A stretch of DNA of 64,000 bases from an uncultured Clostridia bacterium (GCA_934120395.1 CAKOTZ010000005.1:29822-93821); one strand, 5' to 3'. Shown: positions 51,464-57,124, counted from the first letter of the stretch. Numbers and translations are program-made. Notes: generated from the letters alone by a model not told the origin.

Positions 51464-51683
51464 GTTCTTCTCGCTAATGTAGTACCTATTTTCAATACAC
51501 TAAACTATCTCTTCCTAGCCGAAAGCAAAAATATATAAAATTTAAGAGTGAGTTCGACCTTGAAGCAGTCATTCACTACACAAGTTTAGAATGTGTTCAA
51601 TAAAATTTGAAAAGACTGTCGTTCAATCGCCTTGGAGAACGGAACGGCTAAATTTTCATATATTTTTGTGTAGGCGGTAACAC
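51464..51683 (-). repeat. Conserved ~220-nt 3' element, copy E1
   Basis: Runs from ...GTGTTACCGCCTACAC (directly after the G1 stop region) to ...GCGAGAAGAACA. More than 85% identical by eye to copies E2-E5. Confidence 0.75.
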
Positions 51684-51699
51684 AGCAGTTTCTAAAAAA

Positions 51700-52578
51700 C
51701 TACAATTTAGATTTAGAGATAATCACAACTGGGCGCACCCCAATTTTCTCGACGAAGTGATATCCACCGATGTTACCGCTGCTGTACACACACCACGTTT
51801 GGCCGAAGCCGGCGCCCTCATTTGCAAGCCAATAGTAAGTCCCAATATTTCTATAACTTGCCGCAACCCCTTCTGCTTCTGCTTTTGTTAAAAGTCGTCC
51901 ACTTCCACCTAAGTTGCTTCCAAATGTACTTGCTTGACCTTTTGCACTATCCCAATCATTATTACCTATAGTTGTTTTACATAGCAAGGTTACATTAGTT
52001 CCGTCATCTCCTATTACATAAAAACTATATCCTCCAAGACTTACTGTTTCTCCATTTGAATACTTTGTTTTTTTGTTTACCTTTAGTGCATATGTTGCCG
52101 TTTTTGCATTGTAATTTCCTGTTGCTGCACTTGTTACTGTTATTGTTGCTGTTCCATCCACATTCTTTGGCGTTACTGTTATTGTATTTCCGCTTATAGT
52201 AGCTGTTGCAATATCTTCGTTTGATGTTTTTACGCTTAACTCTCCTCCACTTGTATTTTTTATTACGTCAAATGTTATTGTATTTGGATAAGTACATTCT
52301 CCACTTGTTGCTGAAAGTTCTATTTCTCCTTCTTTTTTATCTTCTACTTTATTACTCTCATTTTTTTCTAATTTATTGAAATAATCCTCAACTTTGTTTA
52401 GTAATTCCTGCTCATTTTTACTGCTTTCTTTATATTTATCTACACTAGACTGTGCCTTCTTAATTAGCCCATTCTCTCCTAGTACCATCGATAAACTCAC
52501 TCCCGCTAAAATTAGCAAAACAATAATTGTGATTATCAATGCTACCAATGTAATTGCTTTGTTACTTTTCAAGTTCAT
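51700..52578 (-). CDS. Pilin-like N-terminus / Ig-like / DUF1566-like variable protein G1 (long form)
   Basis: MNLKSNKAITLVALIITIIVLLILAGVSLS hydrophobic N-terminus. Ig-like repeat (ELSATSGECTYPNTITFDV...TITVTSAATG). C-terminal ...GRLLTKAEAEGVAASYRNIGTYYWLAN..[GC-rich NNC codons]..GVRPVVIISKSKL. Confidence 0.8.
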   Translation of the reverse strand: MNLKSNKAITLVALIITIIVLLILAGVSLSMVLGENGLIKKAQSSVDKYKESSKNEQELLNKVEDYFNKLEKNESNKVEDKKEGEIELSATSGECTYPNTITFDVIKNTSGGELSVKTSNEDIATATISGNTITVTPKNVDGTATITVTSAATGNYNAKTATYALKVNKKTKYSNGETVSLGGYSFYVIGDDGTNVTLLCKTTIGNNDWDSAKGQASTFGSNLGGSGRLLTKAEAEGVAASYRNIGTYYWLANEGAGFGQTWCVYSSGNIGGYHFVEKIGVRPVVIISKSKL

Positions 52579-52715
52579 TTTTATCCCTCTTTCCTTTGTG
52601 TTTCTACATAAAATTACTGATTTATTTTGTTCACGACTAAGCAATATTATGTAATTTTATGTTAATTAATTAACCATATTTTATACTATTATCTTGAACT
52701 TGTAAAGTACAATTG

Positions 52716-52746
52716 AAAAAAACTTACCTTTACATGGTAAGTTTTT
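52716..52746. terminator. Cassette terminator T2
   Basis: AAAAAAACTTACC tttacat GGTAAGTTTTT. Confidence 0.7.
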
Positions 52747-52965
52747 GTTCTTCTCGCTGATGTAGTAGCTATTTTCAATACACTAAACTATCTCTTCCTA
52801 GCCGTAAGAAAAATATATAAAATTTAAAAGTGAGTTCGACCTTGAAGCAGTCATTCACTCCACAAGTTTAGAATGTGTTCAATAAAAATTGACAAGGCTA
52901 TTGTTCAAGCGCCTTGGAGAACGGAACGGCTAAATTTTTATATATTTTTGTGTAGGCGGTAACAC
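52747..52965 (-). repeat. Conserved ~220-nt 3' element, copy E2
   Basis: Same element, between the G2 stop and T2. Confidence 0.75.
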
Positions 52966-52978
52966 GACAGTAAAAAAA

Positions 52979-53845
52979 CTACAATTTAGATTTAGAGATA
53001 ACCACAACTGGGCGCACCCCACCGTTGTAGAATTTAGTGTTGTGTGAGTCGATTCTACCTCTGCTGTCCACATAATACGCAAGTTCGTAGCCGTTGCGGT
53101 CGGTGCCGCCCGCATCTGCAAGCCAATAGGCAGTTCCAATATTTCTATAACTTGCTGCCACTCCTCCTGCTTCTGCTTTTGTTAAAAGTCGTCCACTTCC
53201 TCCTAAGTTGCTTCCAAATGTACTTGCTTGACTATTTGCGCTACTCCAACCAGTACCACCTATAGTTGTTTTACATAGCAGGGTTACATTAGTTCCATCA
53301 TCTCCTATTACATAAAAACTATACCCCCCAACGCTTACCGTTTCTCCATTTGAATACGTTGTTTTTTTATTTACCTTTAATGTGTAGTCAACTGTCCCTT
53401 CTTTATATTCTTTTGTTCCTGCACTTGTTACTGTTATTATTACAGTTCCATCTATATTTTTTGGTGTTACTGTTATTTTATTTCCACTTATAGTAGCTGT
53501 TGCAATATCTTCGTTTGATGTTTTTACGCTTAACTCTCCTCCACTTGTATTTTTTATTACGTCAAATGTTATTGTATTCGGATAAGTACATTCTCCACTT
53601 GTTGCTGAAAGTTCTATTTCTCCATCTTTTCTATTTAGTAAATCAAAGTATTCTTCTACTTTATTTAACAAATTCTGCTCGTTTACATAGCTCTCCTGAT
53701 ACTTATTCACGCTTGACTGTGTCTTGTTAATTAGCCCATTATCTCCTAGCACCATTGATAAACTCACTCCTGCTAAAATTAGCAAAACAATAATTGTGAT
53801 TATCAAAGCCACTAACGTAATTGCTTTGTTACTTTTCAAGTTCAT
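52979..53845 (-). CDS. Pilin-like / Ig-like / DUF1566-like variable protein G2 (long form)
   Basis: Start at MNLKSNK behind AAAGGATG. Same architecture as G1. The variable region at about 53015-53135 has 50-67% G+C (hand count). Confidence 0.8.
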   Translation of the reverse strand: MNLKSNKAITLVALIITIIVLLILAGVSLSMVLGDNGLINKTQSSVNKYQESYVNEQNLLNKVEEYFDLLNRKDGEIELSATSGECTYPNTITFDVIKNTSGGELSVKTSNEDIATATISGNKITVTPKNIDGTVIITVTSAGTKEYKEGTVDYTLKVNKKTTYSNGETVSVGGYSFYVIGDDGTNVTLLCKTTIGGTGWSSANSQASTFGSNLGGSGRLLTKAEAGGVAASYRNIGTAYWLADAGGTDRNGYELAYYVDSRGRIDSHNTKFYNGGVRPVVVISKSKL

Positions 53846-54055
53846 AAAAAACATCCTTTCATTTGTGTTCAATTTTATATTCAATCAATAAACATTATAT
53901 AACATAGTGTTTTAAAATACAATACAACATTTTGTTTTATTTTGCATATTTATATTAAATATTATTAACCTAAAATTGCTATTTTATCCATACAAATAAC
54001 ACTATTAAACTTTCATAACATACTTTCTTCTTAAAGATTCCTTTATGAAAAAAAC

Positions 54056-55492: not shown

Positions 55493-55534
55493 TATGTAGG
55501 AAAAACGACATTTTTGTTTGCCATTTTCCTACAT
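55493..55534. other. Hairpin B copy abutting the template-like segment
   Basis: ATGTAGGAAAA...TTTTCCTACAT, immediately 3' (gene orientation) of ...ACC AGC AAT. Confidence 0.6.
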
Positions 55535-55535
55535 A

Positions 55536-55623
55536 ATTGCTGGTGTTGTTACCGTTGTTGTTCACATACCACGCGTTGTTGTTGCTGTTTGCATCTGCAA
55601 GCCAATAGTTAGTTCCAATATTT
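55536..55623 (-). other. Free-standing AAC-rich DGR-template-like (TR-like) segment
   Basis: Coding orientation: AAT ATT GGA ACT AAC TAT TGG CTT GCA GAT GCA AAC AGC AAC AAC AAC GCG TGG TAT GTG AAC AAC AAC GGT AAC AAC ACC AGC AAT. It is homologous to the variable C-terminal regions of G1-G6 but not part of any ORF. Confidence 0.6.
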
Positions 55624-55786
55624 ACGACATAACAACCAGAGTTTGCTAGTACTCCCCTATATTAACCACCTTTTCTGGTGTTATTAATACCCTATTTTTC
55701 TCCAATTTGGTGCAGTTGCCCAAATTGAAGATTTACAGGTGCTATTTCTTCCAGAAATTAGCACCTTATTTAGTTTCCTTCGGAAA

Positions 55787-56662
55787 CTAAGGCAATTTAG
55801 ATTTAGAGATAACTACAACCGGGCGCACCCCAATATCGATATCGCCCATCCAGCCGATGATGCGTCCGTCTCTGAACACAAACCACGCGCCACTTCCGTT
55901 TGCATCTGCAAGCCAATAGTCAGTTCCAATATTTCTATAACTTGCTGCAACTCCTTCTGCCTCTGCTTTTGTTAACAATCGTCCTGTTCCTCCTAGGCTG
56001 CTTCCAAATGAGCTTGCTTGACTTTTTGCACCATTCCAACTATTAGTACCTATAGTTGTTTTGCATAACAATGTTACATTCGTTCCGTCATCTCCTATTA
56101 CATAAAATTCATAATTTCCTACTTTTACTGTGTCTCCTGTAGTATATGTCTTTTGTTTTTTTACGGTCAATGCATATGTTACGGATTTTGCATTATAGTT
56201 TCCTGTTGCTGCACTAGTTACTGTTATCGTTGCTGTTCCATCCACATTCTTTGGCGTTACTGTTATTGTATTTCCGCTTATAGTAGCTGTTGCAATATCT
56301 TCGTTTGATGTTTTTACGCTTAACTCTCCTCCACTTGTATTTTTTATTACGTCAAATGTTATTGTATTTGGATAAGTACATTCTCCACTTGTTGCTGAAA
56401 GTTCTATTTCTCCTTCTTTTTTATCTTCTACTTTATTACTTACATTCTTTTCTAATTTATCAAAGTATTCTTCTACCTTATTTAATAAATTCTGCTCATT
56501 TACATAGCTTTCCTGATACTTATTCACACTAGACTGTGTCTTGTTAATTAGCCCATTCTCTCCTAGCACCATTGATAAACTTACTCCCGCTAAAATTAGC
56601 AAAACAATAATTGTGATTATCAAAGCCACTAATGTAATTGCTTTGTTACTCTTTAAGTTCAT
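55787..56662 (-). CDS. Pilin-like / Ig-like / DUF1566-like variable protein G5 (long form)
   Basis: Same architecture as the other long forms. Variable region about 55830-55925. The stop is followed by a perfect 9-bp hairpin TTAGTTTCC gaa GGAAACTAA. Confidence 0.8.
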   Translation of the reverse strand: MNLKSNKAITLVALIITIIVLLILAGVSLSMVLGENGLINKTQSSVNKYQESYVNEQNLLNKVEEYFDKLEKNVSNKVEDKKEGEIELSATSGECTYPNTITFDVIKNTSGGELSVKTSNEDIATATISGNTITVTPKNVDGTATITVTSAATGNYNAKSVTYALTVKKQKTYTTGDTVKVGNYEFYVIGDDGTNVTLLCKTTIGTNSWNGAKSQASSFGSSLGGTGRLLTKAEAEGVAASYRNIGTDYWLADANGSGAWFVFRDGRIIGWMGDIDIGVRPVVVISKSKLP

Positions 56663-56874
56663 AAAAAACATCCTTTCATTTGTATTCAATTTTATATTCA
56701 ATTAATAAACATTATATAGCATAATGTTTTAAAATACAATACAACATTTTGTTTTATTTTGCATATTTATATTAAATATTATTGACCTAAAATTGCTATT
56801 TTATCCATACAAATAACACTATTAAACTTTCATAACATACTTTCTTCTTAAAGATTCCTTTATGAAAAAAACGC

Positions 56875-56906
56875 AAAAAAACTTACCTTTACATGGTAAG
56901 CTTTTT
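56875..56906. terminator. Cassette terminator T5
   Basis: AAAAAAACTTACC tttacat GGTAAGCTTTTT. Confidence 0.65.
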
Positions 56907-57124
56907 GTTCTTCTCGCTAATGAGATGCTAATTTTTAAGCACTAAACCGTCTCTTACTAGCCAAAAGCAAAAATATATAAAATTTAAAAGTGAGTTCGAC
57001 CTTGAAGCAGTCATTCACTACACAAGTTTAGAATGTGTCCAATAAAAATTGAAAAGGCTGTCGTTCAAGCGCCTTGGAGAACGGAACGGCTAAATTTTCA
57101 TATATTTTTGTGTAGGCGGTAAAC
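56907..57124 (-). repeat. Conserved ~220-nt 3' element, copy E5
   Basis: Same element, downstream of G6 and hairpin B. Confidence 0.75.

What the first reader, a model, noticed from the sequence alone, without database searches (positions are those of the whole stretch)
51464..57124. Conserved ~220-nt non-coding element repeated five times, always between a variable region (or the TR-like segment) and a terminator
**Copies and conservation**
- The copies are at about 51464-51683, 52747-52965, 54090-54306, 55257-55475 and 56907-57124.
- Each lies at the 3' end of a transcription unit, in the order promoter, gene, element, bidirectional hairpin AAAAAACTTACC...GGTAAGTTTTT.
- The copies are more conserved than the coding variable regions they follow.
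- Long invariant blocks in plus-strand orientation include GTGAGTTCGACCTTGAAGCAGTCATTCAC, AGTTTAGAATGTGT, GCGCCTTGGAGAACGGAACGGCTAAATTTT and TTTTTGTGTAGGCGGTAA.

**Coding potential and structure**
- No ORF is conserved across copies. The track ORF 54005..54199 is open in one copy only.
- TAGCCG is complementary to CGGCTA, and AAAAATATATAAAATTT is nearly complementary to AAATTTTCATATATTTTT.
- These pairs are arranged in an interleaved (pseudoknot-like) order.

**Interpretation**
- Copy E4 follows the TR-like segment rather than a gene, so the element associates with the variable/template module and not with a protein.
- Candidate roles: a structured RNA recognised by a trans-acting RT (analogous to the DGR spacer RNA), a retrohoming or recombination target determinant, or a 3'-UTR stability or regulatory element.
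Basis: seen in the sequence. Interest (0 to 1): 0.7.

Follow-up and report, generated by a model that had tools for sequence, protein, structure and literature searches.

The report
Structured hairpin repeat behind DGR-target genes
The five repeats are real, non-coding copies of an uncatalogued hairpin-forming repeat family of uncultured gut Clostridia that was carried along as the tail of a duplicating surface-protein gene cassette. It is not a specific part of the diversity-generating retroelement (DGR) machinery.

Summary

- **Copies.** Five copies of about 220 nt, 93-96% alike, lie on the gene (minus) strand after four variable-region genes and one TR-like segment. Each comes before a bidirectional terminator.
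- **Non-coding and uncatalogued.** They have no conserved ORF and match no Rfam 15 family.
- **A wider family.**
  - Relatives exist outside this array. About 25 diverged copies occur in roughly 10 uncultured Clostridia genomes from metagenomes (MAGs; rabbit and human gut).
  - These MAGs carry several copies each, in intergenic spacers beside unrelated housekeeping genes. No reverse transcriptase (RT) motif was found nearby.
- **Shared architecture.**
  - A conserved core of about 95 nt (CGUUCUCCAAGGCG ... ACACAYUCU ... CAAGGUCGAACUC) is closed by a long AU-rich stem.
  - The stem sequence differs from copy to copy but stays complementary: 88.6% paired against 66.9% in shuffles, and 20 of 26 pairs show changes on both sides.
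- **Other features.**
  - G-U pairs outnumber A-C mismatches about 3:1 on the gene strand.
  - Copies mostly share the orientation of their neighbouring genes.
  - Identical copies sit at unrelated loci within one genome.
- **Best reading.** This is a structured, probably mobile palindromic repeat, transcribed as a 3'-UTR hairpin and spread here by cassette duplication. What the core does is unknown.

The parts
51464..51683 (-). Element copy E1 (core plus stem 51505-51686), after gene 51700-52644
52747..52965 (-). Element copy E2 (core plus stem 52788-52968), after gene 52979-53884
54090..54306 (-). Element copy E3 (core plus stem 54129-54309), after gene 54403-55008 and two small hairpins
55257..55475 (-). 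Element copy E4 (core plus stem 55298-55478), after the TR-like segment and one hairpin. Its terminator is displaced by about 80 nt.
56907..57124 (-). Element copy E5 (core plus stem 56948-57129), after gene 57232-57876 and two small hairpins
51432..51464 (.). Bidirectional intrinsic terminator after E1. Equivalent hairpins lie at 52718-52746, 54059-54089, about 55146-55178 and 56876-56906.
   Evidence: direct reading
55536..55645 (-). TR-like segment (12 AAC codons) upstream of E4. It is absent from the 99%-identical strain L007.
51700..57876 (-). Array of five pseudopilin-like genes with variable C-termini: 51700-52644, 52979-53884, 54403-55008, 55787-56701, 57232-57876. The element forms the 3' tail of each cassette.
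55735..55770 (-). Small hairpin with a GGAA-containing loop just after the VR stop of gene 55787-56701. Weaker versions lie within 54366-54410 and 57195-57240. This is the better candidate for a DGR target hairpin.
   Evidence: PMC3240598
55491..55535 (-). Second hairpin ATGTAGGAAAA...TTTTCCTACAT between the TR (or VR) and the element. Also present at 54310-54360 and 57140-57190.

Best explanation
**What it is**
- The five copies belong to an uncatalogued family of structured, palindromic intergenic repeats found in uncultured gut Clostridia.
- Each unit has a conserved, non-coding core of about 95 nt (CGUUCUCCAAGGCG ... ACACAYUCU ... CAAGGUCGAACUC). The core sits on top of a 20-60 bp AU-rich stem.
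- Only the complementarity of the stem is conserved, not its sequence.

**How it got here (inferred)**
- In this species one lineage of the element sits between gene and terminator in a fast-evolving family of pseudopilin-like surface-protein cassettes. Several of these genes carry DGR-type variable regions.
- It was multiplied by cassette duplication and recombination, and the TR-like cassette received a copy in the same way.

**How it works**
- Shown: the closing hairpin, the conserved core, the wide distribution, and the lack of any link to an RT.
- Inferred:
  - It is transcribed with the upstream gene and folds into a long hairpin at the 3' end of the mRNA.
  - A perfect stem of 20 bp or more is the kind of substrate that double-strand-specific RNases cut. 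The likeliest role is therefore in 3'-end or intercistronic processing and stability, with the conserved core as a binding platform for an unknown factor.
  - Family members spread as mobile, MITE-like units.
  - The repeated ~220-nt tails also give the cassettes homology for reshuffling.
For: **Family and structure**
- Homologues outside the array: near-identical copies in L003, L006-L008, L089 and L090. Diverged copies in L004 and L094. About 25 distant copies in about 10 Clostridia MAGs.
- Stem covariation:
  - 88.6% of cells paired against 66.9% in shuffles.
  - 211 double-change cells against 74.
  - Slid controls give 38-51% paired.
  - 20 of 26 pairs carry compensatory changes.
- In 20 non-redundant copies 94.4% of stem cells are paired.
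- G-U/U-G against A-C/C-A on the gene-sense strand: 65 to 20, and 23 to 7 in the non-redundant set.

**Context**
- Between co-directional neighbours the element shares their orientation in 10 of 12 loci.
- Several copies fill short spacers inside apparent operons, for example L050, where the stem ends about 30 nt before the ligA ribosome-binding site.
- Neighbouring genes are unrelated housekeeping genes.

**Mobility and lineage**
- Within single MAGs, copies at unrelated loci are identical over about 240 bp and end sharply at GTTAC...GTAAC inverted termini.
- Two lineages keep the order element then terminator although the terminators differ: CTTACC..GGTAAG here and ACTGCA..TGCAGT in L004/L094.

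**Exclusions**
- No conserved ORF.
- No Rfam match.

**Local evolution**
- The element is the best-conserved non-coding part of the cassette.
- The array is reshuffled between strains whose flanking genes are about 98-99.7% identical in nucleotides.
Against: - No expression data exist, so transcription, processing and any RNase dependence are inferred.
- No consistent covarying helices were found inside the core beyond GUUC/GAAC and CC/GG. A defined RNA fold for the core is therefore unproven, and its conservation could reflect recognition at the DNA level.
- The whole-element folding energy is not exceptional: z = -0.76 on the gene strand.
- All type-A copies come from one species (about 98-99.7% identity in flanking genes). 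Their mutual similarity says little about selection.
- The G-U excess was counted on a model-fitted alignment, which favours G-U.
- Target-site duplications are inconsistent: 5 bp, 8 bp and none. No transposase is linked to the element.
Confidence: 0.55

Rival explanations
1. DGR accessory RNA or homing determinant. The element would be recognised by a trans-encoded DGR RT-Avd complex, like the spacer RNA downstream of TR in the Bordetella phage DGR. Alternatively it would mark VRs as homing targets.
For: - E4 lies about 60 nt downstream of a TR-like segment. The other four copies follow VR-bearing genes.
- In the Bordetella phage BPP-1 DGR the 144-nt spacer downstream of TR is required for cDNA priming (PMC6182149).
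- In that same system, structure rather than sequence of a downstream inverted repeat is required at targets (PMC3240598).
Against: - No RT motif occurs in the window or in 319 kb of 33 element-bearing loci.
- Distant copies flank housekeeping genes with no TR or VR nearby.
- Close copies follow a glycosyltransferase gene, an AlbA_2 gene and a non-diversified FGE-sulfatase-like gene.
- The TR-like segment is missing from a strain of the same species (about 99% identical flanking genes) that keeps the elements.
- That segment is shorter than the VRs and differs from them at non-A positions.
- Published target hairpins have GC-rich stems of 7-10 bp and GRNA tetraloops, 4-34 bp from the VR. This element has an AU-rich stem of 20 bp or more and a loop of about 95 nt.
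- A separate small hairpin with a GGAA-containing loop is present after the VR.
Confidence: 0.08
2. Purely selfish MITE-like DNA element. The palindromic arms would be terminal inverted repeats and the core a transposase or recombinase recognition region. There would be no function at RNA level or for the host, and its place behind the genes would be an accident of insertion followed by duplication.
For: - Several copies occur per genome. Identical copies at unrelated loci have sharp GTTAC...GTAAC ends.
- Possible 5-bp and 8-bp flanking direct repeats occur in two of three copies.
- Decayed, truncated and IS-interrupted copies exist.
- Core-less short forms exist.
Against: - Arms differ between copies within one genome while complementarity is kept. 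This is the reverse of ordinary MITEs, where the terminal repeats are the conserved part.
- There is an orientation bias relative to neighbouring genes.
- G-U pairs exceed A-C mismatches on one strand.
- No linked transposase family was found. The IS256, IS200 and IS110 genes nearby are different in each case.
- Flanking duplications are inconsistent.
Confidence: 0.25
3. No element as such. The conservation would merely reflect recent segmental duplication and gene conversion of whole cassettes.
For: - All type-A copies come from one species.
- Other cassette parts are equally similar: the signal-peptide segment at 0.96 and the Big-domain segment at 0.97-1.00 among three copies.
- The arrays recombine quickly.
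Against: - Diverged homologues in other species keep the core and compensate the stem.
- The element also occurs without the gene family.
- Neighbouring non-coding promoter regions are only 0.60-0.73 identical.
Confidence: 0.05
4. Independent small-RNA gene: own promoter, hairpin with conserved core, then an intrinsic terminator. It would act in trans, for example through the UUCUCC (anti-Shine-Dalgarno-like) or ACACA stretches.
For: - The order element then terminator is kept in two lineages that use different terminators.
- One L094 copy (5383-5566) has no gene directly upstream and has a TATAAT-like box about 70 nt before it.
- The core is conserved in sequence rather than in pairing.
Against: - Most copies start within 10-100 nt of an upstream stop codon, with no promoter match above chance.
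- The inspected distant copies (for example L050 and the L018 group) show no terminator of their own.
- No targets are known.
Confidence: 0.07

Closest known systems
Bacterial palindromic intergenic repeats and MITE-like elements that fold as RNA (pneumococcal BOX and RUP, neisserial Correia elements, enterobacterial ERIC, Bacillus cereus bcr1). Named from my own knowledge, not tested here.
   Same: - 100-300 bp, non-coding and present in several copies.
- Lie in intergenic spacers and are co-transcribed with neighbouring genes.
- Inverted arms form long hairpins.
- Identical copies occur at unrelated loci, and decayed copies exist.
   Different: - Here the arms vary while an apical core of about 95 nt is the conserved part. 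Ordinary MITEs show the reverse.
- No consistent target duplication and no cognate transposase were found.
- The family is not in Rfam 15.
DGR spacer (Sp) RNA downstream of TR (Bordetella phage BPP-1; PMC6182149)
   Same: A non-coding stretch of 140-220 nt lies directly downstream of a TR-like segment (E4 only).
   Different: - Sp lies between TR and the RT gene and is unique to the DGR. This element has no RT nearby.
- This element also follows VR genes and unrelated genes.
- It occurs in genomes at loci with no TR.
DGR target hairpin/cruciform next to IMH (PMC3240598)
   Same: An inverted repeat lies downstream of a VR, and structure rather than sequence is conserved in the stem.
   Different: - Published hairpins have GC-rich stems of 7-10 bp, a 4-nt GRNA loop, and lie 4-34 bp from the VR.
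- This element has an AU-rich stem of 20-60 bp and a conserved loop of about 95 nt. It also occurs after the TR and away from any VR.
Integron attC sites
   Same: They lie at the 3' end of gene cassettes, and the hairpin structure is conserved more than its sequence.
   Different: - attC keeps RYYYAAC/GTTRRRY boxes at the base of the stem and has a variable loop.
- Here the termini read GTTAC...GTAAC, which is the opposite order, and the loop is the conserved part.
- No integrase is present.
Precursor stalks of stable RNAs cut by RNase III (rRNA, Bacillus scRNA). Named from my own knowledge.
   Same: A long perfect stem formed by the 5' and 3' flanks encloses a conserved RNA.
   Different: - Those are single, essential genes with a known mature product.
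- This element is multi-copy, and its core shows no defined fold and no match to a known RNA.

Membership tests
Any Rfam 15 family | Score at or above the family's gathering threshold | tested here: not met
   - No hit over the window at gathering threshold.
- Only chance-level miRNA or sRNA hits at E up to 10 on 51000-58100 and on a distant copy.
- In 16 related loci only tRNA, tmRNA, RNase P, SRP and T-box were found, none over the element.
DGR spacer (Sp) RNA | Lies between TR and the RT gene of the same DGR | tested here: not met
   - No RT motif occurs in the window.
- Pfam on the genes flanking the array finds ToxN, holA, ruvC and others.
- Only one of the five copies follows a TR-like segment.
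DGR spacer (Sp) RNA | Co-occurs with DGR RTs across genomes | tested here: not met
   No DGR-RT motif in 319 kb around 33 element-bearing loci. Neighbours are housekeeping genes. The test reached only about 4-10 kb on each side of a copy, not whole genomes.
DGR spacer (Sp) RNA | Provides the priming nucleotide and pairs with the 3' end of TR | not testable with these tools
   Needs RT-Avd biochemistry or RNA-cDNA junction sequencing (as in PMC6182149).
DGR target hairpin/cruciform | GC-rich stem of 7-10 bp, GRNA tetraloop, 4-34 bp downstream of the VR | tested here: not met
   - The element has an AU-rich stem of 20 bp or more and a loop of about 95 nt.
- It starts about 20-150 nt after the stop codon.
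- Criteria are from PMC3240598.
- A separate hairpin with a GGAA-containing loop fits better.
MITE | Several dispersed copies with near-identical copies at unrelated loci | tested here: met
   L018/L052/L057 and L015/L023/L056 are identical over about 240 bp while their flanks are unrelated.
MITE | Terminal inverted repeats conserved in sequence across the family | tested here: not met
   Arms differ between copies even within one MAG, with compensatory changes. Only a short GTTAC/GTAAC end recurs, and only in some subfamilies.
MITE | Target-site duplication of fixed length | tested here: inconclusive
   CAGAC (5 bp) in L015, TAGTTGTT (8 bp) in L056 and none in L023.
MITE | A related autonomous element with a transposase | tested here: inconclusive
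   IS256, IS200 and IS110 genes lie next to single copies, but each is a different family and looks like a secondary insertion. No genome-wide search was possible.
Integron attC | R''/R' core sites (RYYYAAC ... GTTRRRY) at the stem base, and an integrase | tested here: not met
   Termini read GTTAC...GTAAC, the conserved part is the loop, and no integrase is among the neighbours.
Small protein or type I toxin gene | An ORF conserved across copies | tested here: not met
   The best frame is open in only 8 of 22 cores, and no consistent start codon exists.
Structured RNA (generic) | Base pairs kept through compensatory changes | tested here: met
   Met for the closing stem. Inconclusive for the inside of the core.

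The most novel reading that the evidence does not exclude
The conserved core of about 95 nt would be the recognition module of a new class of structured RNA or mobile element in gut Clostridia, read by a trans-acting enzyme not yet identified. In this lineage it would have been co-opted to tag remote target cassettes and the template cassette of a DGR whose RT lies elsewhere in the genome. One RNA tail would then direct both cDNA synthesis and homing.
Probability: 0.07. Interest if true: 0.85.

Novelty: new variant of a known kind. Interest (0 to 1): 0.45.

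Why it matters
- It adds an uncatalogued structured repeat family, supported by covariation, from uncultured gut Clostridia. Its design is unusual: variable arms around a strongly conserved apical core. That implies an unknown factor that reads the core.
- It shows that what looks like a DGR-specific RNA is a general intergenic element caught in a duplicating surface-protein cassette. This is a caution for annotating DGR loci.
- The repeated tails probably help the rapid reshuffling of a pilin-like adhesin family between near-identical strains.

Tried and rejected
- **Rfam.** Gathering and lax E-value searches on the window, the region, 16 related loci and one distant copy gave nothing.
- **Coding.**
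  - One frame looked open, with synonymous-looking changes, in four closely related copies.
  - It is not open across the family.
- **Collection scans.**
  - Viral contigs gave 0 hits for two 21-mers. The two-block pattern gave two hits, both rejected by the model. Two TR/VR patterns gave 0 hits.
  - An exact 21-mer found nothing in genome contigs.
  - The JGI metagenome scan gave 28 pattern hits, none confirmed by nhmmer.
  - Phages gave no match. Plasmids gave only weak AT-rich hits to the small hairpin.
- **Literature.** A search for the core sequences found nothing relevant.
- **Core structure.** Single folds, RNAalifold on three alignments and a pairwise covariation scan gave no consistent helices.
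- **Search for the RT.** Neighbourhoods of eleven target-family homologues showed no RT.
- **Organism name.** Cluster look-up returned no names.
- **Other classes considered and dropped.** attC, REP/RAYT, IS200/IS605 ends, ωRNA or bridge RNA, tRNA-like, 6S-like, T-box and LexA box. Either a defining feature was absent or Rfam had no hit.

Full report
**1. The observation**

- Reading 50000-58500 shows five transcription units on the minus strand.
- Four of them are genes whose products start with a pseudopilin-type signal (MNLKSNKAITLVALII...). They end in a variable C-terminal segment: 51700-52644, 52979-53884, 54403-55008 and 57232-57876. A fifth gene (55787-56701) is followed by an AAC-rich TR-like segment at 55536-55645.
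- After each gene or TR comes the reported element, then an A-run/hairpin/T-run terminator.
- The five copies align without difficulty. Two 21-mers from them occur exactly five times in the window, with none expected by chance.
- In an alignment of whole cassettes the element is 0.93-0.96 identical on average. That matches the signal-peptide segment. It is clearly above the promoters (0.60-0.73), most coding sequence (0.80-0.90) and the VRs (0.57-0.71).
- One detail differs from the finding: after E4 an extra ~80 nt precede the terminator.

**2. Not coding, not catalogued**

- No Rfam 15 family reaches threshold anywhere in the window. Lax searches give only chance hits.
- One reading frame looked open in a few related copies. 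Across 22 diverse cores the best frame is open in only 8, and there is no common start codon.

**3. Relatives elsewhere**

- *Same species.*
  - Homologues of the target protein led to contigs carrying near-identical elements: L003, L006, L007, L008, L089 and L090.
  - L007 is the syntenic locus of another strain. Flanking genes are 98-99.7% identical in nucleotides, so these copies are from the same species.
  - The array itself is reshuffled between the strains (85-96% identity, different gene order, an IS256 inside one element).
  - The TR-like segment is absent from L007.
- *Diverged lineage.* L004 and three copies in L094 keep the core. Their stem sequence is different but still complementary.
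- *Distant copies.*
  - A pattern built from the two blocks shared with L004 (CTCCAAGGCG N55-75 CAAGGTCGAAC) was scanned over one genome per species.
  - Besides chance hits in GC-rich genomes, it returned about 25 true copies in about 10 uncultured Clostridia MAGs (rabbit, human Hadza and other gut samples). These were confirmed by nhmmer and by a covariance model.
  - The JGI metagenome and viral scans gave no true copy.

**4. Anatomy**

- All copies share the same layout:

```
5' arm - YCGUU CUCCAAGGCG YUU.. - about 60 variable nt containing GA.ACACAYUCU - CAAGGUCGAACUC - 3' arm
```

- The arms are AU-rich, 20 to about 60 bp long, and differ from copy to copy, even within one MAG. They remain complementary.
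- On 42 distinct sequences the stem is 88.6% paired against 66.9% in column shuffles and 38-51% when partners are slid. There are 211 double-change cells against 74, and 20 of 26 pairs show compensatory changes.
- In 20 non-redundant copies 94.4% of stem cells are paired.
- GUUC/GAAC and CC/GG at the top of the stem never vary.
- Inside the core I found no helix that holds across subfamilies. A small hairpin presenting ACACA is common but not universal.
The TAGCCG/CGGCTA pairing is possible. However, in L004 and L094 the same 3' CGGC extends the main stem in a nested way, so a pseudoknot is not needed.

**5. Strand and context**

- G-U/U-G pairs outnumber A-C/C-A mismatches on the gene-sense strand: 65 to 20, or 23 to 7 in the non-redundant set. 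This is as expected if that strand folds as RNA, with the caveat that the alignment was fitted to the model.
- Between co-directional neighbours the element has their orientation in 10 of 12 loci.
- It often fills a short spacer that begins a few nucleotides after a stop codon.
- Neighbours are unrelated: aminopeptidase, ftsY (twice), dnaX with SRP RNA, rplM, ligA, purB/ymdB, FBPase/purD, serS, tmRNA and LRR proteins.
- Within single MAGs, copies at unrelated loci are identical over about 240 bp and stop sharply at GTTAC...GTAAC inverted ends. This points to mobility. Flanking direct repeats are inconsistent.
- In the window lineage and in the L004/L094 lineage the element is followed by a terminator, but the terminators differ.

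**6. Relation to the DGR**

- No DGR-type RT motif is present in the window or in 319 kb around 33 element-bearing loci.
- Close copies follow a glycosyltransferase gene (L090), an AlbA_2 gene (L094) and a non-diversified FGE-sulfatase-like gene (L003).
- The local TR-like segment is shorter than the VRs and differs from them at non-adenine positions. It cannot be their template.
- In the Bordetella phage system the spacer lies between TR and the RT gene (PMC6182149).
- In that system targets need an IMH plus a GC-rich hairpin of 7-10 bp with a GRNA loop, 4-34 bp from the VR (PMC3240598). The element meets none of these criteria.
- Small hairpins with a GGAA-containing loop just after the VR stop codons do resemble that hairpin.
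- E4 behind the TR is most simply explained by common descent of the TR cassette and the target cassettes.

**7. Conclusion**

- *Shown.*
  - The element is non-coding, with a hairpin supported by covariation and a conserved core.
  - It belongs to a wider family that is not linked to DGRs.
- *Inferred.*
  - It is transcribed as a 3'-UTR or intercistronic hairpin.
  - It is probably processed at the long stem.
  - It is mobile as a unit.
  - It is amplified here by cassette duplication, and its repeated tails favour cassette reshuffling.
- *Unknown.* What reads the core.
- *Rivals.* The main rival is a purely selfish MITE-like element. The DGR-accessory reading is unlikely but cannot be fully excluded without the complete genome.

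Noticed in passing
window 50601-51110 (-) and 51198-51298: A type III toxin-antitoxin locus lies directly downstream of the array. It has a ToxN/AbiQ-family toxin (Pfam E = 7e-50) preceded by 2.8 tandem 36-nt ToxI-like repeats.
   Followed up: partly
window 55536-55645 (-): A TR-like segment with 12 AAC codons has no RT in the 64 kb window. It is absent from a strain with about 98-99.7% identical flanking genes, is shorter than the local VRs, and mismatches them at non-adenine positions. It may be an orphan or decayed template.
   Followed up: partly
window 55735-55800 (-); also 54366-54410 and 57195-57240: Small hairpins lie just after the VR stop codons. One has a 13-bp stem and a GGAA-containing loop (z = -7.8) and resembles the published DGR target hairpin. 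It is degraded in two cassettes and absent from two.
   Followed up: partly
window 58218-59100 (-): holA (DNA polymerase III delta) is split into two overlapping ORFs. The N-terminal ORF is also called separately in the related strain L007.
   Followed up: no
window 51100-58100 compared with L007 6200-15600: The gene array is extensively reshuffled between two strains whose flanking genes are about 98-99.7% identical. Cassettes differ in number and order, reach only 85-96% identity, and L007 has an IS256 insertion.
   Followed up: partly
L014, L019, L021, L022, L032, L053, L060 (next to the distant copies): A second repeat, TGTAGGG followed by a GC-rich hairpin (REP-like), recurs beside the elements in AT-rich intergenic spacers.
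   Followed up: no
L005 3805-3928; L006 5128-5254; L001 10858-10905: Short forms of the element keep the first ~50 nt, and in two cases the last ~70 nt, but lack the conserved core. All break at the same point, after CCGTTCCGT.
   Followed up: partly
L003 12007-12608; L007 10864-12459; L094 7723-9006: Three different IS families (IS200 Y1 transposase, IS256, IS110) sit in or beside element copies. These cassette boundaries appear to be insertion hot spots.
   Followed up: no
L015 5556-6153; L036 6204-6526: Distant copies lie directly upstream of, and co-oriented with, tmRNA and SRP RNA genes.
   Followed up: no
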